Positions 8,068 to 16,305 are shown, counted from the stretch's first letter. The stretch: DNA of 37,224 nucleotides from Promethearchaeota archaeon (GCA_019058015.1 JAHLWH010000268.1:1-37224); one strand, 5' to 3'. Numbers and translations are program-made. The notes: generated by a model from the sequence alone, not told the origin.

Positions 8068-10103
8068 ATGAATCTAAAATTAAATAGTTTCCAGAAAAAG
8101 GCAGGAATATTCTATACTCCAGAGTACATTACTGAATTCATGGTAAAAAACGCAATTTTTGAATATATATTAACATTCTTTGAAAAAAGATATCAGACTA
8201 TTGATGAATTAATTTTATCAGACAATCTGGATGACTTAAAAAAATTAAACAACATTATTATACATTTGAAAATCTTAGACCCAGCATGTGGAGCTGGCAT
8301 ATTTTTATTAAAATCAGGACAAATCTTATTGGAATTAACAAGTAAAATTGCAAAAAGATTAAATCTTAGACAAATGATCTTCAAAAAACGAGTTGATATA
8401 ATAGAAAAAAATCTTTACGGTGTTGATATATTTGAAGAAACTATTCAAGAATGCAAATCGCAATTGAAAAAATGGTTGATTTCAAATGATCAACTTAATT
8501 TTAATAATTATGGAAATAAAGATATAAATTTTAATCTAAAGGTTGAAATAGTTTAATTGGCAACTTAAATGAAGAAATAAATGAGGGAGATGTATTCAGT
8601 AATAATTTTTCAATAGAATGGAAGTCATTCCATTGGAATAAAGAATTTCCTGAAGTAATTAAGAGCGGAGGATTTGATATCATTTTGGAAAATCCGCCCT
8701 ATATTTTTACCCGTGGAGGAAATTTTTCTCCTTTACAGAAAATCTACTTTAAAAATTTCATTTCTAAATTAGGATTAATTCAATCAAAAAAAGGAAAGCA
8801 AATTCAATCAAATAAATTAAATACATATTCTCTATTTATCCTGAGGTCTTTAGAATTATTAAAAAAAGGAGAAAAATTAGCGGTATTAGTTCCAAATAAT
8901 TTTCTGCGCAACACAAATCTCGATATTTATAGAGATTACATACTTAGTAATTATTCCATCAATCGAATTGTTGATTTATCTAATGGTGTTTTTCGAAATG
9001 TAGTTGCATCTATTATCTGCTTATTTATTGATAAAAAAAAGCCAGATGAGGAATTTAAGACGCAAATTATATCAAATATTGAAGATCTTAATGAAAACAT
9101 TTATAAAGAAAATAAAAGAGCACAATCCAGCTTTCTCAAAAATAAGAGCTATGTAATTAATATATATCTTGATGAAACAGCTCGTAAAATTTGTAAAGAA
9201 ATTGTAAAAAATTCAACAAATTTAGGAGAAATCACTGAATATATTATTGAAGGAATTATTCGCTCAAAGAAGAGAGATGTCTATGAAACTCGACTGAAGT
9301 CTATAGATATGCCCTTTATAGAAGGAAAGAACATTGATAGGTATATTACTAAATGGTCTGGTAAATTTATTAGATATGATAGAGAAAATTTACATAGGGC
9401 AAGGTCTAATGAAGTATTTACCAGTAATAAATTAATAGGACAAAGGATAAGTGGAGGAGCTAAACCATTAAAAGCAAATTATGACTCCGGGATCTTTTAT
9501 ACATTTTCTTCAATAAACAATATAATCATAAAAGAAAATTTTCGAAAGAAATTCCCCTTAAAGCTTATTTTATTAATTTTAAACTCTAATTTAATGAACT
9601 GGTATTATTCAATAAATTTCACAAATAAATCGAAACTTACAGTAAATATTTCAAAAAATTTTTTGGAAGAAATCCCCATTGTTGAACCTAAAGACAAATC
9701 TCTTTTTGAAATAATGGCAGAGTATTTGATATTTTTATTTCACTATTATAATATTGAAAATGAAAAGTTAATTTTCAACAATGAAATGATCCAATTCTTT
9801 TACGTATTAAGCAATGGAATAATCTATGAATTATATCTAAAAGAAAAAATTAAATCAAATTTAATAAACAATTTAGAAAACAAATTAACACCAATCAAAT
9901 TTGAATATTGGATTAATGGAAAATTTAGAAAGCTTATTTTTAAGGAAGATATATTTCATTTTGAAATAATTGAAAAGGAAAATCTTGAAAAAATAAAAAG
10001 GATTTATAATAAATTGGTTAAAGATAACACAATTCAGACTAATTTTAATGACGTCTATAAAAACAAATTGATAAAATTTATAGAGAAAGATGTTAAAAAG
10101 TGA
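8068..10103 (+). CDS. N6-adenine DNA methyltransferase (Eco57I/TaqI-like with C-terminal target recognition domain), split by a 1-nt frameshift near 8545
   Basis: GIFYTP and ILDPACGAGIFL in ORF1, NPPY in ORF2. Adding one G gives NLKVGNSLIG...FHWNKEFPEV..GGFDIILENPPY with no stop (678 aa). Confidence 0.88.
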
Positions 10104-10332: not shown

Positions 10333-11649
10333 TTGTGGGGAAATATCATAAAAAATTCAAATATAAATCTAAATAATCAACTGAAATATTTAATAATAAG
10401 AAACCCATTAGACTTGCAAATAGAAAGAAAAGATATATTTTATCGCGAATCTTATTCCGAAATTATTGATTATATAAAATTTTTATTGAGTTCTGAGGCT
10501 GTATCATCAGAAACTAAAATAAAGAAGATCAAAGGTTCAATTTTAATTGATGCTCCTTATGGCTCTGATATATTAGGGTATATTAAATTGATTGCAAAGA
10601 CATTCACCTTAAAATTTGTAAAGTTAAATTTTCCCGAGATTAGAAAATCTCCTAATGATTTTATATTAAATTTTCCAAATATCTTTGATAATTTGGCTAA
10701 AATTTATGGAGGAGCTAAAAAAGTAGAGCAAGAAGTTAAAGAAAAAGATAAAACTATAGAAAGAGCTTTAAAATTTATATTTGTTGCTGAAAATCAACAA
10801 GAATTATTTCAGAGAACTCAGAAAGATATTCATTTTGATCTATTCGAACACTTATATTATGAGTTAAAAAATAAGATGGAAAATATTAATTTTATCGAGA
10901 ATGGGATTATTTTTATAGGAATAAATCATCAAGAGAATACTTTATGCCAAGCAAGTTTTAAATTATTTGATTTTTATTTAAAAATTCCAACGATCACTGA
11001 AAATGAAAGAATAATTATTTTAGAAAAAATTAGTGAAGAGATATCTGCAAATCAGACTTTTAATGTGGATAAAATTGCTTCCTTAACTGAAGGGTGGGAA
11101 GTAAATGATATAAGGGAATTGATTAAAATCGCATACTTACGGAATGTGGCTAAATTAGATGATTGTGTCAACGATATTACAGAATTAACAGAAAAAATAA
11201 TTGACAGGGGGGAATTTATTCCTTCATATTTGATTTCACTAAATTTTATTCAAAATAAATTAGGGACATTTCAAACTTCTTTAAATTCTTCAATACATCA
11301 ATCGATAAATCAAAATAGAAAGTTTAATATAGAACTTTCAAAAGAAGAATATAGTAAAATTCCAGAACTTGAATCTCAATTAAGAGCTGAAATAGAGAAG
11401 ATTAGATCACAAAGAATATCAAATTTTATGGTACAACAATTATATGAAGATGCAGCGTCAGAAAATTATACAGAGCTCTTAGTTATATTAGATAAGATGA
11501 AAAAGAAAGAACCCCTTGAAGACTACGATCGAAAATTATTAGCTGAATATTCTTTTATTTTGAATGACCCTCCAAATATCGCCTTAATACTGTTAGAAAA
11601 GGCAAAAAAACGAATTGATAATATTAAAAAAGCATTTGGGAAGGAATAG
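10333..11649 (+). CDS. Degenerate (pseudo-ATPase) classic-clade AAA+ protein with a helical C-terminal domain
   Basis: GSILIDAPYGSD (Walker A position, no GKT), FIFVAEN (Walker B position), IIFIGINH, LFDFYLKIPTITENERIIILE and lid IASLTEGWEVNDIRELIKIA, following the Cdc48/PAN/Vps4 layout. Confidence 0.7.
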   Translation: MWGNIIKNSNINLNNQLKYLIIRNPLDLQIERKDIFYRESYSEIIDYIKFLLSSEAVSSETKIKKIKGSILIDAPYGSDILGYIKLIAKTFTLKFVKLNFPEIRKSPNDFILNFPNIFDNLAKIYGGAKKVEQEVKEKDKTIERALKFIFVAENQQELFQRTQKDIHFDLFEHLYYELKNKMENINFIENGIIFIGINHQENTLCQASFKLFDFYLKIPTITENERIIILEKISEEISANQTFNVDKIASLTEGWEVNDIRELIKIAYLRNVAKLDDCVNDITELTEKIIDRGEFIPSYLISLNFIQNKLGTFQTSLNSSIHQSINQNRKFNIELSKEEYSKIPELESQLRAEIEKIRSQRISNFMVQQLYEDAASENYTELLVILDKMKKKEPLEDYDRKLLAEYSFILNDPPNIALILLEKAKKRIDNIKKAFGKE

Positions 11650-11652
11650 AAA

Positions 11653-14600
11653 ATTTCGACAAAAACAATTAAGTCTAGATCATCATCGGACAAATTAAAC
11701 CAAGAGGTTTACATTAAAGAGATTATATTAGAAAATTTTTTAGCTTTTTCTAGAGATAAAGCCGAATTTTCTAAAGGATTTACAATTGTAGTTGGTCCTA
11801 ATTGGTCTGGTAAATCCACAATTTACCAAGGGATAAAGTTTGCTTTAGGTAGCAATGAAAGGGACGAAAGATATACAAAATGGTCCGATTTTATAAGAAC
11901 CGGACAAAACCATGCTCTAATCGAACTTTATATTCAGACACCTGAGAATTTGATTGGAATACGAAGGACTGTACTTAGAGGAAAAGCTCCTTTTTTTGAA
12001 ATTAAGCAAAATAATGAGAAAGAATTCAAAAAAATTAATTCCCTTGAAATAAGAAAGCTTGTAAAATCATTAAATTATAATCCAGATAATCAATTTTCTT
12101 TTGTCAGTCAAGGCAAAATTGATGCGCTTAAAGATATGAAACCTGAAGAATTATGCATTTTCTTAGAGGAAGGAGTGGGCTTAAAAGGATTAAGATATGA
12201 AATTTTAGAGCAAAAAACTCAAGTATTCAATTTACAAGAAAAATTAAAAGCATTAAAAACAGAGCTAAATAGTTGGAATTTTGAATTAAAATTATTGGAC
12301 CCTAAGTTAAAAAGATTAGAAGATAAGCGAATTTTGCTTAAAGACAAAAAAAGCCTAACAGATGAGTTATTATGGGCAAATCGAGAAAAACTAGAAAAAG
12401 AGATTTATATTCTTGAAGAAAATATTAAGAAAATTGCTATTATAATTAATGATTTACAAAAGCAATTAGAAGATTTTACAACGCAAATAAATGAAATTAC
12501 TGAAAAAATTGGAACAATTGAAAAAAATTCAGAAATACTTTATGAGAATATAGGAAAAATAAGGGGTAGAATTTCAGAATTAGAGAAGATTATTCAACAG
12601 TGGAAGATGGAACAACAAAGGATAAAGGTACGCTTAGAGGAATTAGAACAAAATAAAAACAAACTAAAAGGTAAATTAGACAACAATAAGGCTAAAGGAA
12701 ATAAGATCTCAGAAGAATTAAAACTCTCACGCAAGAATATTAAAATACTAGATTCTGCAATCTCTAATATTTTAAAAGAACAAAATGAATTATTGGAAAA
12801 GGTTTCTATTCACAAAGATTTTCTTGAGAGATTTAAGAAGACAAAAGCAGAATTAAGTAAAAAACAAGATGAGCTTATTCAGAATACCCAAAAAATAACA
12901 GAAATTAATGATGAAATTGATATAATTTTCGCTGAATTAAGAGATGTAAAGCATCAATTTGAGCAAAATAAATGGTTTCTTAAAAATAAGGATGAGAATT
13001 TACAAGAAAAGTTAATTAATCAGCGTAATAATTTAGATAATGAAATTCATGATTTAAAGGAACAACTAAGAGAAATAAGAAAGGATTATGATAAAAGAGT
13101 TAATGCTTATAAAAGATTAAATTATTCCATTAGAGAAAAAAGAGTATTCTTACCTCAAAATGTCATAACTTTAAAAGAAGAGATTTACAATAGAAATCTA
13201 AATGCAAAAGGTCCAATAATTGAATTATTACAATATGATGATAAATTGGGGTTTGCAATTGAATCAGTTTTAGGAAAAAAAGTGTTATTTAGTTTTATTG
13301 CAGGCGATTGGAATACGTTTATTCTACTAAAAAAATTGAAAGATAGTTATAATGTTTATTGTAATATATATATACCAAAGGAAGAAAATATTCGTCAATT
13401 TTCAAAATATGAGAAAATTGATGGAGTATTAGGCTATCTCGCAGAATTAATTAAAATTAAGGGCAATGATGAAGATGTAAGGAAATTAATTTATTCTAAA
13501 GTGAAAAATTGTCTTGTAGTAGAAGATTTTACTACAGGAACACTTATGCATAAAAATTACAAATTTAGAGGTAAATGTGTAACATTAAAAGGCGAGCAAA
13601 TCATATCCTATGATTATGTTGTTGAAACACCATACTTAAAGAAATTAGAAGGATTATTAAGTCCTACTAAACAAATGGATCAATTATATCTGTTAGAAAT
13701 GGAAATAAGTAAATTGAATGATGAAAGAAAGAATTTAGAATCTCTAAAAACTAAAATAGATCAAAAATATCGAGAAATTTCCAAGAAAATTAATGCTTTA
13801 CCTACTCTTGAATTATTATTCCGGCAAGAACAAAAACTTTTAAGCAAAAAAGATAATCTCTTTGAAACAAGAAAAAATAAGAACGAATTGAATGATAATA
13901 TTGAAATGCAAATCGATGATTTGGTAAAAAAAGTGGAAACTTTAAAAAAAGAACAAAAACCAGAATTTTTTGAATGGCAGAAGCGTTTAGAAAAGATTCC
14001 AGACGAATTTGATTTAAAAAACAATGAAAAGAAACATTGGTCAAAAATTAATGATGAAAAACAGAAATCATTATCTGAAATTCAAGAAATTATAAATGAA
14101 GAAACCGCTGAATTTACAAAAATAAACATTAGTCATAAAACAACCAAAAAAGAGTTTCAAAGTAGAGATCAAAAGGCATTTGAAGTATTTCAAGAACTAA
14201 CTGGACTTGAAAATCAAATTAAGGATTTAAAAATTCAGAAAGAAAAGTATGAGTTAGATAAAAAGGCTCTAAAGGAAGAAGAAAATAAAATTAAACAAGA
14301 AAATCTTGAGTTTAATTTAAATTATGAAAGAAAACAAGACCAATTGAGTTCGCAACAAAATGATCTCCAATCCAAAATTTTAGATCTAGAAAAAGTAAAT
14401 AAAGAGATTGGTCCAAAAATATTAAGTGAAGAAATAAAAATACGTCCAATTGAAGAAATTGAAAAAAGTCTTCTCGAACTGAATAAAGAATTAATGAAAT
14501 ACGCAGATATTGATGATACTTTAGAAGTAGAAAAAGAGAGAATTATTAAAACACTTAAAAAAATTGCTAAAAATCAAGCGCAAATTCAGAGAGACCTTAT

Positions 14601-15108
14601 TGAAGCAGAAGAAACCGAAAAGAATTTAGAAAATACATATTACAAAAAGTTCAATAAAATTATCAAAAAACTAGAAGATTTAATTAATAAAAAATTTGAA
14701 ATCTCTGAAATTAAAGCTCAGTGTTCAATTGATTTATCGGGTAAATTTGAAAATTTAGGCATAAAAATTAAAGCATCTTTATTAAAAGAACAACTACGAG
14801 AAATAACCGCATTAAGTGGGGGACAACGTTCTATCATTGCAATCTGTTTAATACTTTCTTTACAAGAGTTTAAATCAAGTAGGATAATTGTATTAGATGA
14901 GGCTGAATTATATTTAGATGAAAATAACGCCGAAATCGCCTATAAATTAATAAAGGGCGCAATCCAGATGAATAAAACACAAATAATAATATTTGTGCCA
15001 AAAGCATCTAAATATATTTATTCAATGGCAGATAAACTCATTGGAGTTGCAAGAAATGGAGCAATAGGGCCATCTACGATACTCCAACCTAAGATAATAA
15101 AGACTTAA
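11653..15108 (+). CDS. smc: SMC ATPase, Smc5/6-like (about 1151 aa; inferred non-canonical ATT start)
   Basis: The frame upstream of 11950 encodes VYIKEIILENFLAF...FTIVVGPNWSGKST...WSDFIRTG. Also Q-loop NPDNQFSFVSQGKI, coiled coils, hinge GPIIELL...AIESVLG, LSGGQRS, IVLDEAELYLDENN and QIIIFVPK. Confidence 0.9.
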   Translation: MSTKTIKSRSSSDKLNQEVYIKEIILENFLAFSRDKAEFSKGFTIVVGPNWSGKSTIYQGIKFALGSNERDERYTKWSDFIRTGQNHALIELYIQTPENLIGIRRTVLRGKAPFFEIKQNNEKEFKKINSLEIRKLVKSLNYNPDNQFSFVSQGKIDALKDMKPEELCIFLEEGVGLKGLRYEILEQKTQVFNLQEKLKALKTELNSWNFELKLLDPKLKRLEDKRILLKDKKSLTDELLWANREKLEKEIYILEENIKKIAIIINDLQKQLEDFTTQINEITEKIGTIEKNSEILYENIGKIRGRISELEKIIQQWKMEQQRIKVRLEELEQNKNKLKGKLDNNKAKGNKISEELKLSRKNIKILDSAISNILKEQNELLEKVSIHKDFLERFKKTKAELSKKQDELIQNTQKITEINDEIDIIFAELRDVKHQFEQNKWFLKNKDENLQEKLINQRNNLDNEIHDLKEQLREIRKDYDKRVNAYKRLNYSIREKRVFLPQNVITLKEEIYNRNLNAKGPIIELLQYDDKLGFAIESVLGKKVLFSFIAGDWNTFILLKKLKDSYNVYCNIYIPKEENIRQFSKYEKIDGVLGYLAELIKIKGNDEDVRKLIYSKVKNCLVVEDFTTGTLMHKNYKFRGKCVTLKGEQIISYDYVVETPYLKKLEGLLSPTKQMDQLYLLEMEISKLNDERKNLESLKTKIDQKYREISKKINALPTLELLFRQEQKLLSKKDNLFETRKNKNELNDNIEMQIDDLVKKVETLKKEQKPEFFEWQKRLEKIPDEFDLKNNEKKHWSKINDEKQKSLSEIQEIINEETAEFTKINISHKTTKKEFQSRDQKAFEVFQELTGLENQIKDLKIQKEKYELDKKALKEEENKIKQENLEFNLNYERKQDQLSSQQNDLQSKILDLEKVNKEIGPKILSEEIKIRPIEEIEKSLLELNKELMKYADIDDTLEVEKERIIKTLKKIAKNQAQIQRDLIEAEETEKNLENTYYKKFNKIIKKLEDLINKKFEISEIKAQCSIDLSGKFENLGIKIKASLLKEQLREITALSGGQRSIIAICLILSLQEFKSSRIIVLDEAELYLDENNAEIAYKLIKGAIQMNKTQIIIFVPKASKYIYSMADKLIGVARNGAIGPSTILQPKIIKT

Positions 15109-15125
15109 AAGAAATTTGAATCATT

Positions 15126-15797
15126 ATGGAAAAAAATAACTCCTCTATCCCGTCTATTATTGAAGAAATTCAAGAAATTTTTGATATAATTCATAGAGGG
15201 TCCAAACATGCTCTAAGTGTAGATTTAAACCCCATTTTTCAAAAATTTAAGCGATCCATAACTACACAAAATCTGAACGAGTCTTCCTCTGCATTTAGTA
15301 AGTTATGTAATATTATTGAAACAAAATTTAACGAATTACAGATGTATTTAGCCCTATTTGGTCAAGAAAAGAAATTCCTGACATTTTTAGAATCAAATCC
15401 TTCTGATATTGAAATATTCAATCTATTTAAAGGATGTTGGTATAAACCCTTTAATTTAAATGCATTATCTCTTGATTTTTTAGAGGAATCTAAAGATTCA
15501 CTGGAAAACAGAATAAGAGAAGGTTATATAATCGAAAATCTTGAAATCCCACAAAAAGATGAAAATTTTTTATTAGAAATGCCTTCAAGTTCATTTCAAG
15601 AAATAATTGAAAACTATTTTAATAAAATATCTGAAAAATTACCATGTAATATGGAAGATCTCTTCGAAGATATCGAGAATCAGGAAGAAATATTTGAAAA
15701 ATTTATTATGATTTTACATTTACTTCAAAATGGAAAAATAATGTATCAAAAACAGACAAATTTTATTTATATACCAGAAGGTGGAAAAGATGAATGA
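15126..15797 (+). CDS. Kleisin (ScpA/Nse4-like) subunit
   Basis: N-terminal ALSVDLNPIFQKF...NLNESSSAFSKLCNIIETK and C-terminal winged helix FIMILHLLQNGKIMYQKQTNFIYI resemble ScpA; begins 17 nt after the smc stop. Confidence 0.72.
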   Translation: MEKNNSSIPSIIEEIQEIFDIIHRGSKHALSVDLNPIFQKFKRSITTQNLNESSSAFSKLCNIIETKFNELQMYLALFGQEKKFLTFLESNPSDIEIFNLFKGCWYKPFNLNALSLDFLEESKDSLENRIREGYIIENLEIPQKDENFLLEMPSSSFQEIIENYFNKISEKLPCNMEDLFEDIENQEEIFEKFIMILHLLQNGKIMYQKQTNFIYIPEGGKDE

Positions 15798-16305
15798 AAT
15801 ATCCTTATTGATGTATTTATTGAGTAAAAAAGACCAATTGGATGAGATGGGTTCAACCAAAGAAGAGATATTAGAGAAATTGCAAATTTCTGGGCGAGAG
15901 AAAGGATTTATATTTAAGAAACTATTAATTGAACTTTCTAGATATATATCTCCCTTAGGACTCGAAATCCAATATAATCCGTTAAATACCCATTGGTTCT
16001 TAACCTTTAAATCAGGTATGAGCGATCTGATTTTAGCAAACCCATTTCAAGATAAACCACGATTGGCTGCAACTTTATTTTGTGCAATAATTTTATGCTT
16101 AAAAAGTAATGGTATTGCAAAAATAGAAGAATTAAAGCGATTAAGAAATAAAAAAGATATCCGGGAAGACTTAAAAGATTTAGAAAAGCTAGGTTTTATA
16201 AAAATTTTAAAAAATCATAATGAAATTAATTTAACCCCACTTATTGGGTATTTATTGAACATATCTAAATTATTTATGAAATTATCATTAAAATTAAATG
16301 TTTGA
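15790..16305 (+). CDS. KITE (ScpB/Nse1/Nse3-like) tandem winged-helix subunit
   Basis: About 171 aa; ELSRYISPLGLEIQYNPLNTHWFL and LAATLFCAII...EELKRLR...DLKDLEKLGFI fit WH-A/WH-B; ATG at 15790 follows GGTGG and overlaps the kleisin stop. Confidence 0.68.
   Translation: MNEISLLMYLLSKKDQLDEMGSTKEEILEKLQISGREKGFIFKKLLIELSRYISPLGLEIQYNPLNTHWFLTFKSGMSDLILANPFQDKPRLAATLFCAIILCLKSNGIAKIEELKRLRNKKDIREDLKDLEKLGFIKILKNHNEINLTPLIGYLLNISKLFMKLSLKLNV

What the first reader, a model, noticed from the sequence alone, without database searches (positions are those of the whole stretch)
11653..15108. SMC carries Smc5/6-clade hallmarks and an unusual Walker A (GPNWSGKS)
The H-loop His of canonical SMC (ITH) is replaced by QIIIFVPK, like the ITPK/ITPQ of eukaryotic Smc5/Smc6. 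NPDNQFSFVSQ, LILSLQE and the hinge GPIIELL..D.K...AIESVLG..LFSFIA also follow Smc5/6 patterns as I recall them. The Walker A has Trp where SMCs usually have Gly (codon TGG), while GKS, LSGGQ and DE are intact. This bears on the origin of eukaryotic Smc5/6, and the Trp may alter ATPase behaviour.
Basis: partly seen in the sequence, partly recalled or inferred. Interest (0 to 1): 0.7.

Follow-up and report, generated by a model that had tools for sequence, protein, structure and literature searches.

The report
Smc5/6-like archaeal SMC with tryptophan P-loop
This gene encodes the motor subunit of an extra chromosome-organising SMC complex of an Asgard archaeon that belongs to the archaeal group most closely related to eukaryotic Smc5/6, a relationship already published, and it carries an undescribed but firmly conserved tryptophan in its ATP-binding loop.

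Summary
Window 11653-15108 (+) is one open frame of 1151 codons with full SMC architecture. Its Walker A is GPNWSGKS, and its H-loop position reads FVPK.

The Trp is not an error: 115 of 116 homologues that include the N-terminus have it. It is a derived change of one Asgard family. Relatives elsewhere in the clade have Gly at this position.

The gene sits in a conserved four-gene block: a degenerate AAA+-like gene, the SMC, a kleisin-like gene and a kite-like gene. The block is orthologous to a second SMC operon found across Asgard archaea. The genome also encodes a canonical Smc and a third, 1490-residue SMC.

In a site-heterogeneous tree rooted with Rad50, this archaeal clade groups with eukaryotic Smc5 (UFBoot 98, SH-aLRT 92). 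Canonical SMCs and Smc2 form the other clade. The two alternative arrangements are only marginally rejected (p-AU 0.047). No Smc6 sequence was available.

Two papers already describe SMC5/6-related archaeal SMC operons. The Trp and the AAA+-like neighbour are absent from what I could search of them. Verdict: a new variant of a known kind, of moderate interest.

The parts
10333..11649 (+). Upstream gene of the block: 438-aa degenerate AAA+-like protein, a candidate fourth subunit or regulator
   Evidence: Found directly upstream of the SMC by tblastn in 78 of 79 related loci, and by profile in 16 of 16 loci of the wider clade. Orthologues in other Asgard families reach Pfam AAA PF00004 at 33-76 bits. 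The window copy gives only an AAA-lid hit to CdvC (E 1.4e-5). The Walker A Lys is lost in the window copy and in 10 further copies of the 12 aligned.
11653..15108 (+). SMC gene, 1151 codons plus stop; probable non-canonical start (ATT 11653)
   Evidence: TIGR02169 matches end to end (20-1135) at 184.7 bits against a cut-off of 729.4.
11794..11817 (+). Walker A GPNWSGKS; W51 codon TGG at 11803-11805
   Evidence: for the sequence. W is invariant in A1 and present in 115 of 116 homologues with an N-terminus. All 19 non-W clade members aligned have G here.
12079..12117 (+). Q-loop segment NPDNQFSFVSQGK (Q153)
13207..13539 (+). Hinge domain (residues 519-629)
   Evidence: Pfam SMC_hinge scores 20.7 bits, just under the cut-off of 22.5. 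PF06470 is precomputed for most homologues.
14812..14826 (+). ABC signature LSGGQ (1054-1058)
   Evidence: Invariant in A1.
14890..14919 (+). Walker B / D-loop VLDEAELYLD (D1082, E1083)
14980..15003 (+). H-loop position QIIIFVPK: Pro1116 stands where bacterial SMC and Rad50 have His
   Evidence: HMM alignment to Smc5 ITPK and Smc6 ITPQ. Alignment blocks.
15126..15797 (+). Kleisin-like subunit, 223 aa
   Evidence: Found downstream in 69 of 79 loci. The AF2 model (pLDDT 67.7) shows an N-terminal helical domain, a disordered linker and a C-terminal winged helix. Among full-length Foldseek matches the top ones are kleisins: Nse4 7qcd_F (E 0.028), Brn1, Nse4 7tve_G; all are weak. There are weak ScpA C-WHD sequence hits.
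15781..16305 (+). Kite-like subunit, 174 aa from GTG 15781; relatives begin at the MNE that corresponds to ATG 15790

Best explanation
The gene encodes the SMC ATPase of an additional SMC-kleisin-kite complex of an Asgard (Promethearchaeota-labelled) archaeon. It is one family's version of a non-canonical archaeal SMC that is widespread in Asgard genomes. That archaeal group is the closest prokaryotic relative of eukaryotic Smc5(/6).

Inferred mechanism, from what is established for SMC complexes:
- Two copies dimerise through the hinge.
- ATP-sandwiched heads engage through Walker A and the LSGGQ signature.
- The kleisin-like protein bridges the heads, and a dimer of the kite-like protein sits on the kleisin.
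- The ring entraps or extrudes DNA.

The upstream AAA+-derived protein has lost its Walker A lysine. It is probably a non-catalytic accessory or loading factor.

The Gly-to-Trp change at the fourth Walker A position is a fixed, lineage-specific substitution. The motifs that do the chemistry (GK[ST], Q-loop Gln, LSGGQ, DE) are intact. The protein is therefore most likely still an ATPase, with altered nucleotide handling or head engagement.

Shown here: sequence features, conservation, synteny, partner folds and phylogenetic position. Inferred: complex formation, DNA activity, and any effect of the Trp.
For: Architecture and paralogy:
- TIGR02169 matches end to end, but at 184.7 bits against a cut-off of 729.4.
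- The same genome holds a canonical Smc (835 bits) and a third SMC split over two contigs.

Conservation of the Trp:
- 115 of 116 homologues have it.
- W51 is invariant in A1.

Synteny:
- In 79 related loci, the upstream gene is found in 78, the kleisin-like gene in 69 and the kite-like gene in 64.
- The same profiles hit neighbours of the second SMC of other Asgard families: upstream gene 16 of 16 loci, kite 14, kleisin 10. They hit 0 of 4 canonical-like loci.

Partner folds:
- The kite model matches ScpB, Nse1, Nse3/MAGE, MukE and JetB.
- The kleisin model has kleisin layout, with Nse4 as the top Foldseek row.

Wider clade:
- The profile search gives a score gradient: 1974 bits for the core, 600-745, then 326-524 (about 1117-1155 aa; Hod-, Baldr- and Odin-labelled). 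Canonical SMCs score 185 or less.

Affinity to Smc5/6:
- The family profile scores PDB Smc5 at 80.7 and Smc6 at 79.7 bits, level with Smc2 and Smc4.
- The genome's canonical Smc scores Smc1-4 at 216-248 bits and has no Smc5/6 among its best 60 (under 49.6 bits).
- One eukaryotic Smc5 (P0253) ranks within the best 150 of 17,744 hits.
- Shared character states: Pro at the H-loop, and F[VLM][SP]Q. The clade and Smc5 also lack the 4-residue insertion and the GKS-N of canonical SMCs and Smc2, states they share with Rad50.

Tree (56 rows, 550 columns, LG+C20+F+G4 PMSF, 4 Rad50 as outgroup):
- Canonical clade with Smc2: 99/98.
- Archaeal non-canonical clade: 99/96.
- That clade plus Smc5: 98/92.
- The grouping is kept at SH-aLRT 86 without the four longest archaeal rows.

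Literature: section 10 of PMC8665677 and sections 8 and 14 of bioRxiv 10.1101/2024.01.07.573240 describe SMC5/6-related archaeal SMCs and operons.
Against: - AU tests reject the two rival backbone arrangements only marginally (p 0.047 each, delta lnL 7.44).
- The first tree, with one Rad50, left the backbone open.
- Smc5 and several archaeal rows are long branches, and treekit flagged a long-branch join of Smc5 with L105.
- No Smc6, Smc1, Smc3, Smc4 or identified TACK sequence was in the tree.
- Raw identity of the window's head and hinge is lowest to Smc5: 18.6%, against 20.7% to Smc2 and 21-24% to canonical SMCs.
- Kite and kleisin profiles, narrow and broad, find no Nse1, Nse3 or Nse4 in the PDB. 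No member hits a Pfam Nse, MAGE or ScpA/B family: 0 of 62 kites and 0 of 57 kleisins in the family, and 0 of 11 kites and 0 of 7 kleisins from the wider clade.
- Pro at the H-loop also occurs in one canonical-like SMC (L110).
- Complex formation and ATPase activity are untested.
Confidence: 0.68

Rival explanations
1. It is a fast-evolving duplicate of the ordinary archaeal condensin-type Smc-ScpAB. Its grouping with Smc5 is long-branch attraction plus convergent loss of the H-loop His.
For: - The partners look as much like ScpB/ScpA as like Nse proteins.
- Raw identity is higher to canonical SMCs than to Smc5.
- The backbone was unresolved with one outgroup, and the AU p-value is only 0.047.
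- A canonical-like SMC (L110) independently has ITPR.
Against: - Under a site-heterogeneous model, the canonical clade including Smc2 excludes this clade at 99/98, and the join with Smc5 gets 98/92. The join survives removal of the longest archaeal rows.
- The profile scores Smc5/6 level with Smc2 and Smc4, although Smc5/6 are the most divergent eukaryotic SMCs for the canonical control.
- Two independent published phylogenies reach the same grouping for archaeal paralogues (PMC8665677 section 10; bioRxiv 10.1101/2024.01.07.573240 section 8).
Confidence: 0.22
2. It is a defence-type SMC system (like Wadjet/JetABCD, Lamassu or MukBEF) that acts on foreign DNA rather than on the chromosome.
For: - A restriction-modification methyltransferase fragment lies two genes upstream (8685-10103).
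- 2 of 62 kites give weak DUF4194 (JetB/MksE-type) hits (E 0.032).
- AAA+ orthologues give weak IetA/IteA hits.
Against: - PADLOC gives only weak partial hits for the SMC: mad3 67.6 bits, LmuB up to 41 bits on the N-terminal P-loop, JetC about 27 bits on coiled coil. It gives none for the kleisin, the kite or the upstream gene.
- No nuclease (JetD/LmuA-type) gene is part of the conserved block.
- The operon is present once per genome and is syntenic across a whole phylum sample. That pattern suits a housekeeping gene, not a mobile defence island.
Confidence: 0.06
3. It is not an SMC proper but a Rad50/SbcC-type or archaea-specific SMC-related protein (ASRP).
For: There are N-terminal hits to Rad50 models (up to 58 bits) and to ASRP (73.9 bits). 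It shares with Rad50 the absence of the 4-residue insertion and of GKS-N.
Against: - All these scores are far under their cut-offs (ASRP 300, Rad50 700-1087).
- A hinge lies in the middle of the protein, and PF06470 is recorded for most homologues.
- Kleisin and kite partners are present, with no Mre11 next to the gene.
- Rad50 forms a separate clade at 100/99.
Confidence: 0.02
4. The Trp codon or the missing start codon marks a sequencing error or a decaying pseudogene.
For: There is no ATG, GTG or TTG before residue 100.
Against: - The frame is open for 1151 codons.
- The Trp is present in 115 of 116 homologues from many independent assemblies.
- The N-terminal extension aligns with relatives.
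- Two genus-mates share the same start region.
Confidence: 0.02

Closest known systems
'SMC5/6-related aSMC' of Yoshinaga and Inagaki 2021 (PMC8665677), i.e. the SMC5/6-related archaeal SMC-kleisin-kite operon of van Hooff et al. (bioRxiv 10.1101/2024.01.07.573240)
   Same: - It is a second archaeal SMC beside the canonical one.
- It is encoded in its own operon with a kleisin and a non-ScpB-type kite.
- It groups with eukaryotic Smc5/6 rather than with condensin/cohesin SMCs (paper sections read: 10, and 8 and 14).
   Different: - I could not match accessions to their trees. The supplement of PMC8665677 gave 126 characters of text, and bioRxiv supplements are closed. Identity with their clade is therefore inferred from properties.
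- The window's family adds a Walker A Gly-to-Trp.
- The whole clade has a conserved AAA+-derived gene upstream. Neither feature appears in the main texts searched: 'tryptophan' and 'walker' give 0 hits in van Hooff et al., 'aaa+' gives 0, and the three 'Walker A' mentions in PMC8665677 are generic.
Eukaryotic Smc5 and Smc6
   Same: - Pro in place of the H-loop His or Leu: ITPK, ITPQ and FVPK.
- F-x-[SP]-Q Q-loop, and a hinge that begins with GP.
- No GKS-N and no 4-residue insertion after the first helix.
- A kite-type (not hawk-type) partner.

   Different: - One gene, so presumably a homodimer rather than a Smc5-Smc6 heterodimer.
- No Nse2, Nse5 or Nse6, and no RING on the kite.
- Partners show no detectable sequence similarity to Nse1, Nse3 or Nse4.
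- Only 16.5-20.8% identity to Smc5 over head and hinge.
- Trp in Walker A, where Smc5 has Gly.
Prokaryotic Smc-ScpAB (condensin-type; TIGR02169)
   Same: - The same domain order and length.
- An SMC, kleisin and kite gene set.
- A weak match of the kleisin C-terminal winged helix to ScpA.
   Different: - It scores a quarter of the family cut-off.
- It lacks GKS-N and the H-loop His or Leu.
- No family member's partner reaches Pfam ScpA or ScpB at E 0.1 or better (0 of 57 and 0 of 62).
- It is separated from the canonical clade at 99/98.
- A true Smc with a ScpB neighbour exists elsewhere in the genome.

Membership tests
SMC superfamily, SMC proper (head - coiled coil - hinge - coiled coil - head) | N-terminal Walker A and Q-loop; C-terminal signature, Walker B and D-loop; central hinge; about 1100-1200 residues | tested here: met
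   Motifs read. TIGR02169 aligns over 20-1135. SMC_N scores 47.6 bits, above its cut-off of 40. The hinge scores 20.7 bits, just under 22.5, and PF06470 is recorded for most homologues.
Canonical prokaryotic Smc (TIGR02169 / TIGR02168 equivalogs) | Score over the curated equivalog cut-off | tested here: not met
   184.7 against 729.4 bits, and 170.5 against 567.35 bits. The genome's own canonical Smc scores 835.3.
Canonical prokaryotic Smc | ScpA and ScpB partners recognisable by Pfam (PF02616, PF04079) | tested here: not met
   0 of 57 kleisin-like and 0 of 62 kite-like members hit them at E 0.1 or better. The genome's other two SMC loci do have PF04079 neighbours, at 58 and 118 bits.
Archaeal SMC5/6-related SMC (defined phylogenetically in PMC8665677 and bioRxiv 10.1101/2024.01.07.573240) | Branches with eukaryotic Smc5/Smc6 and not with canonical SMC plus Smc1-4 | tested here: met
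   Support is 98/92 for the join with Smc5 and 99/98 for the canonical clade with Smc2, and SH-aLRT 86 after removing the long archaeal rows. The rival arrangements are rejected at p-AU 0.047. Support is moderate, and only Smc5 and Smc2 stood for the eukaryotes.
Archaeal SMC5/6-related SMC | Own operon with a kleisin and a non-ScpB-type kite, beside a canonical complex in the same genome | tested here: met
Archaeal SMC5/6-related SMC | Kleisin related to Nse4 and kite related to Nse1/Nse3, as reported by van Hooff et al. | tested here: inconclusive
Eukaryotic Smc5/6 holocomplex | Smc5-Smc6 heterodimer with Nse1-Nse4 (plus Nse5/6) | tested here: not met
   There is a single SMC gene per operon. 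No Pfam Nse family was detected. The protein is a relative of the complex, not a member.
Rad50/SbcC | Zinc hook instead of a hinge, Mre11/SbcD partner, H-loop His | tested here: not met
   A hinge is present. The neighbours are a kleisin and a kite. Pro stands at the H-loop. Rad50 forms a separate clade at 100/99.
ASRP (NF045487) and arcadin-4 | Score over the curated cut-off | tested here: not met
   73.9 against 300 bits, and 43.6 against 860 bits.
Wadjet (JetABCD), Lamassu | JetC or LmuB model match with JetA/JetB/JetD or LmuA partners | tested here: not met
   Only partial hits of 41 bits or less to LmuB and about 27 bits to JetC, and none for the three neighbours. No nuclease gene is in the conserved block.

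The most novel reading that the evidence does not exclude
The archaeal Smc5/6-like complex is a four-part machine, and its conserved fourth part is an AAA+-derived protein that has lost ATP binding. This protein would be a built-in loader or regulator, playing the role that Nse5/6 play in eukaryotes. In one Asgard family the SMC's ATP site was then re-tuned by the Walker A Gly-to-Trp change, while the AAA+-like partner decayed further. In most genera of that family no canonical Smc was found. There this re-tuned complex, together with the 1490-residue paralogue, may have taken over general chromosome organisation.
Probability: 0.2. Interest if true: 0.75.

Novelty: new variant of a known kind. 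Interest (0 to 1): 0.5.

Why it matters
Smc5/6 is the least understood eukaryotic SMC complex. Its prokaryotic roots have been traced only by phylogeny. No paper found in five full-text searches reports biochemistry on an archaeal member.

This locus gives a compact, complete candidate for such work: the SMC, a kleisin, a kite and an AAA+-derived neighbour in one operon.

It also offers a natural experiment at the ATP site. One Asgard family has fixed a bulky Trp where the rest of the clade, and every other SMC and Rad50 row aligned here, has Gly. Comparing Trp and Gly versions would show how much the fourth Walker A position controls ATP turnover and head engagement in an SMC.

The Trp itself does not bear on eukaryote origins, because it is derived and local. 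The conserved AAA+-like gene might, if it proves to be a subunit.

Tried and rejected
- Supplement of PMC8665677: I searched it for Asgard names, hoping to match accessions to the published tree. It held only 126 characters as text and gave no occurrences. bioRxiv supplements are closed, so the operon figure and tables of van Hooff et al. were not seen.
- Narrow and broad kite and kleisin profiles against PDB sequences: no Nse1, Nse3, Nse4 or ScpB. The only relevant hits were ScpA C-terminal domains at E 0.08 and 0.3 and MAGE-B1 at E 0.49.
- Pfam scans of partner proteins: no SMC-partner family among the 62 kites and 57 kleisins of the family, nor among 11 kites and 7 kleisins of the wider clade.
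- Profile of the upstream protein against the PDB: nothing at E 1 or better.
The position of Trp51 relative to ATP is unknown.
- First tree (74 rows, one Rad50): the backbone was unresolved. It was replaced by a 56-row set with four Rad50.
- Search for compensating changes. Among all aligned columns, four others (N419, H434, Y569, K1150) are also uniform in all 7 Trp rows and absent from the 19 Gly rows. None lies in an ATP-site motif.
- Rows dropped:
  - 9 kleisin and 2 kite references whose tblastn range ran past the stop.
  - Further clean references left out when typing A2-A4.
  - L099 (cut by its contig end) left out of the trees.
  - 18 rows removed, and 3 Rad50 added, between the first and second tree to save time.


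Full report
**What is at the coordinates**

Translation of 11653-15108 (+) gives 1151 residues without a stop. The frame opens three bases after the TAG of the upstream gene. It has no ATG, GTG or TTG until 11950. The mechanical ORF list therefore shows only a 1052-aa product that would lack the Walker A. Public gene calls for the closest relatives are truncated in the same way (P0002-P0004).

The 5' part is nevertheless coding. It holds the Walker A and aligns with the N-termini of relatives, which carry a 15-30-residue extension before '[YF]I[KR]KVILENF'. In the three genus-level sequences compared, 'GGAAGGAATAGAAAATT' is conserved. A 91%-identical relative has an in-frame ATG where the window has AGA. 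I take ATT 11653 as the likely start. This is inferred, not shown.

- GPNWSGKS (48-55; TGG at 11803-11805)
- NPDNQFSFVSQGK (143-155)
- the hinge
- LSGGQ (1054-1058)
- LDE (1081-1083)
- QIIIFVPK (1110-1117)

**Is it an SMC, and which one**

NCBIfam's archaeal SMC model aligns over residues 20-1135 but scores 184.7 bits against a cut-off of 729.4. Rad50, ASRP, arcadin-4 and RecN models score far lower. Pfam sees SMC_N (47.6 bits) and a hinge just under threshold (20.7 against 22.5).

The assembly (G000, 3.84 Mb, 94% complete) holds two more SMC genes:
- A canonical one (C267, 835 bits; GANGSGKSN, ITH) has a ScpB gene next to it.
- A second one, of about 1490 residues, is split between contigs C102 and C245, whose ends overlap. 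It reads GPNGAGK and ISH, has no Pfam hinge hit, and is followed by a ScpA/Rad21-like kleisin with an N-terminal zinc-finger-like motif and by a ScpB.

The window's gene is thus a third, most divergent paralogue.

**The Trp**

The word-indexed search found 615 relatives at E 0.001 or better among 7999 scored candidates. The 120 listed are about 1150-residue proteins from Promethearchaeota-, Loki-, Thor- and Hod-labelled assemblies. Of the 121 stored sequences:
- 111 read GPNWSGKT
- 4 read GPNWSGKS
- 1 reads GPNASGKT
- 5 are N-terminally truncated

In a 40-sequence alignment the whole GPNWSGK string is invariant. A read error is excluded.

A profile search of 201 genomes of the phylum found close family members (E 1e-100 or better) in 41. 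These were 37 of 40 genomes of the window's GTDB family plus the window's own genome, and 3 of 3 genomes of a sister family of the same order. None of the 157 genomes of 25 other families had one.

The sister-family copies (L106-L108) have Gly. So do all more distant clade members, except one representative, P0122 (GPNWAGKS). In my alignment Trp51 is uniform in all 7 Trp rows, and all 19 Gly-type clade rows have Gly there. The four other columns with that pattern (419, 434, 569, 1150) lie outside the ATP-site motifs.

The change needs one base (GGG to TGG). On the tree it needs either two gains or a gain and a reversal, because P0122 branches outside a group that contains Gly-type sequences (94/88).

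The Trp is therefore a derived, family-level trait.

**The operon**

In 79 related loci, tblastn finds the upstream 438-aa gene in 78, the downstream 223-aa gene in 69 and the 174-aa gene in 64. Many loci end at contig edges.

None of the three proteins has a Pfam family. Their profiles find nothing in PDB sequences.

The 223-aa protein folds less confidently (pLDDT 67.7). It has an N-terminal helical domain, a disordered middle and a C-terminal winged helix, which is the kleisin layout. The full-length Foldseek matches are kleisins: Nse4 7qcd_F (E 0.028), Brn1, Nse4 7tve_G and JetA. All are weak. A broader profile gives weak ScpA C-terminal hits (E 0.08 and 0.3).

**The wider clade**

The exhaustive profile search (17,744 hits at E 0.001 or better; 225 at 1e-30 or better) shows a gradient:
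- The family core scores 1974 and 1399 bits.
- A shell scores 600-745 bits.
- A further shell scores 326-524 bits. These are 1117-1155-residue proteins; the three looked up that carry a name are Hod-, Baldr- and Odin-labelled.
- Canonical SMCs score 185 bits or less.

In 71 Asgard genomes scanned with the canonical model, several other families have a canonical Smc plus one such 1115-1145-residue paralogue.

I fetched 12 of these loci, 3 sister-family loci and one short (825-aa) type. Profiles of the window's partners find an upstream-gene homologue in 16 of 16, a kite in 14 and a kleisin in 10. They find none in 4 canonical-like control loci. The four-gene block is therefore orthologous across the phylum sample.

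The upstream gene's orthologues are classic AAA+ domains (PF00004, 33-76 bits; AAA_lid_3). The best-preserved copy matches Cdc48, p97 and AFG2 in the PDB. An alignment of 12 copies shows an intact GxxGxGKT only in the copy next to the short SMC (L105). In the six copies from other Asgard families the lysine is replaced ('G..G[TS][DH]F'), and it is likewise lost in the five copies of the window's order. The window's copy is so decayed that only a lid fragment is detectable. All copies share a conserved C-terminal segment of about 90 residues.

**Relation to Smc5/6**

1. Profile scores. The family profile scores PDB Smc5 at 80.7 bits and Smc6 at 79.7 bits. These are level with Smc4 (95 and 77), Smc2 (76), Smc1 (69), Smc3 (63) and prokaryotic Smc heads (about 70), and above Rad50 (42). 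As a control, the genome's canonical Smc scores Pyrococcus Smc at 399 bits and Smc1-4 at 216-248 bits, with no Smc5/6 among its best 60 (under 49.6 bits).

2. HMM alignment.
   - The family's 'lflPk' lies on Smc5 'FITPK' and Smc6 'IITPQ'.
   - Its 'fafvsQG' lies on Smc5 'CQFLPQD' and Smc6 'CFLSQD'.
   - Smc2 also has 'NINNPNFLIMQG', so the NP..N part is not specific.

3. A eukaryotic Smc5 among the hits. One eukaryotic protein, P0253 from Acytostelium, appeared among the best 150 hits. Its homologues are named SMC5 across animals, fungi, plants and protists. A Smc2 (P0252) appeared as well. This gave real sequences for a tree.

4. Alignment blocks.
   - Canonical SMCs, Smc2 and the 1490-residue paralogue share GKS-N and a 4-residue insertion after '..dlI..G'. 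The window's clade, Smc5 and Rad50 lack both.
   - At the H-loop, Rad50, bacterial SMC and the 1490-residue paralogue have His. Archaeal canonical SMC and Smc2 have Leu. The window's clade and Smc5 have Pro, followed by a segment one or two residues longer.
   - The hinge begins 'GP' in the clade and in Smc5, against 'G[TL]' in canonical SMCs.
   - One canonical-like Asgard SMC (L110) also has ITPR, so the Pro is not unique to the clade.

5. Trees.
   - A first quick tree (74 rows, one Rad50) recovered the archaeal non-canonical clade (SH-aLRT 98) and the canonical clade with Smc2 (92). It left their relation to Smc5 unresolved and warned of long branches.
   - The careful tree used four Rad50, 56 rows and 550 head-plus-hinge columns under LG+C20+F+G4 by PMSF. 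Support, as UFBoot/SH-aLRT:
     - Rad50: 100/99
     - canonical clade with Smc2, the 1490-residue paralogue and L110: 99/98
     - archaeal non-canonical clade: 99/96
     - Smc5 with the short L105 type: 92/64
     - those two together: 98/92
   - Holding Smc5 with Rad50, or Smc5 with the canonical clade, costs 7.44 log-likelihood units in both cases. The equal value suggests that both constrained trees collapse to a star. Each gives p-AU 0.047.
   - Without the four longest archaeal rows, a quick tree still joins Smc5 to the Asgard clade (SH-aLRT 86).

6. Evidence against. Raw identity of the window's head and hinge is 18.6% to Smc5, 20.7% to Smc2, 21-24% to canonical SMCs and 21% to Rad50. 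The affinity therefore rests on model-based inference and a few shared character states, not on overall similarity. No Smc6 or TACK sequence was available.

**What is already known**

Yoshinaga and Inagaki (PMC8665677; I read passages and section 10) split 512 archaeal SMCs into 432 canonical and 80 'SMC5/6-related'. The latter are mostly from TACK, with some from Asgard.

Van Hooff et al. (bioRxiv 10.1101/2024.01.07.573240; I read the abstract and sections 8 and 14) report the following:
- One operon is SMC5/6-related, with an Nse4-like kleisin and Nse1/3-like kites.
- Monophyly of all eukaryotic SMCs could not be rejected in their data (p-AU 0.317).

The window's operon fits that description.

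The following searches bear on whether the new features are in print:
- 'tryptophan' and 'walker' have no occurrence in the van Hooff main text.
- 'aaa+' has none there.
- 'GPNWSGK' occurs in no paper of the library.
- 'Asgard' with 'kleisin' lists three papers, none of them with biochemistry.

**How it most likely works**

By analogy with solved SMC complexes (established knowledge, not tested here), two SMCs would dimerise at the hinge. Their heads would sandwich two ATP between the Walker A of one head and the LSGGQ of the other. The kleisin would close the ring, and a kite dimer would bind the kleisin's middle.

All residues that carry out ATP chemistry are conserved, so I expect an active ATPase.

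The fourth Walker A position is Gly in every other SMC and Rad50 row aligned here. From general knowledge of P-loops (recalled), a side chain at this position points towards the phosphates and the opposing head. A Trp there could slow hydrolysis or change engagement. This is conjecture.

The AAA+-derived neighbour, without its lysine, is more likely a scaffold or loader than a motor.

A defence role of the Wadjet or Lamassu kind is unlikely. PADLOC gives only weak partial hits for the SMC and none for the partners. No nuclease is part of the block. The operon occurs once per genome and is syntenic across families.

**Verdict**

- The Smc5/6 reading is supported at moderate strength and agrees with the published work, so that part is not new.
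- New here:
  - the fixed Walker A Gly-to-Trp of one Asgard family
  - the conserved AAA+-derived first gene of the operon
  - the probable non-AUG start in this genus

Noticed in passing
G000 contigs C102:793-4728 (+) and C245:4897-5490 (-), loci L010 and L009; complete copies in L111-L113: This is a third SMC paralogue of about 1475-1490 residues (GPNGAGKSN, H-loop ISHR) with no Pfam hinge hit and a degenerate-looking hinge region. It is followed by a 329-aa ScpA/Rad21-like kleisin with an N-terminal zinc-finger-like CxxC motif and a 252-aa ScpB. In the tree it sits inside the canonical clade, next to a divergent Asgard SMC (L109).
   Followed up: partly
The genome search, GTDB family f1: Within the window's family, only its own genus (G000, G040) has a canonical Smc over the TIGR02169 cut-off. 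The 12 sampled genomes of three other genera (91-100% complete) show only the 1490-residue paralogue and the Trp-type SMC. Canonical Smc may have been lost there.
   Followed up: no
window 10333-11649 and orthologues in L091-L102, L105-L108: The gene upstream of the SMC is an AAA+ derivative conserved across Asgard families. Its Walker A lysine is lost (G..G[TS][DH]F in the copies of other families), except in the copy beside the short SMC of L105. It has a conserved C-terminal segment of about 90 residues (...QLY..A...Y....PL...L..YPFIL...AKK). It is not mentioned in the SMC evolution papers searched.
   Followed up: partly
L105 (G038:C1:1913000-1922000) and similar 850-aa frames in family f19: This is a short, 825-aa SMC-like protein (GRNGAGKTT, VVTPLR) with an intact AAA+ ATPase upstream and a kite downstream. 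In the careful tree it is the sister of eukaryotic Smc5 (92/64). The join of two long branches was flagged as unsafe.
   Followed up: no
L110 (G041:C7): A canonical-like Asgard SMC (597 bits to TIGR02169, GANGSGKSN) carries ITPR at the H-loop. It is an independent His/Leu-to-Pro case outside the Smc5/6-like clade.
   Followed up: no
window 11647-11720; L013, L014: In this genus the SMC gene has no ATG, GTG or TTG start, and public gene calls lose the first 99 residues, including the Walker A. A conserved ATT follows an AAGGAA stretch and the upstream gene's stop codon. This suggests a non-AUG or coupled start.
   Followed up: partly
window 8685-10103 (+): A 472-aa ORF has Eco57I-type methylase, N6_Mtase and TaqI_C specificity domains. 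It matches only the last part of the Eco57I profile (81-171 of 171), so it may be a truncated or N-terminally miscalled type IIG/II methyltransferase.
   Followed up: no
L056 (DATKTW010000069.1): A contig labelled 'Candidatus Nanopelagicaceae bacterium' carries the complete Asgard four-gene block. Its ORF coordinates are identical to those in L055, a Promethearchaeota-labelled locus. It is probably a mis-binned contig.
   Followed up: no
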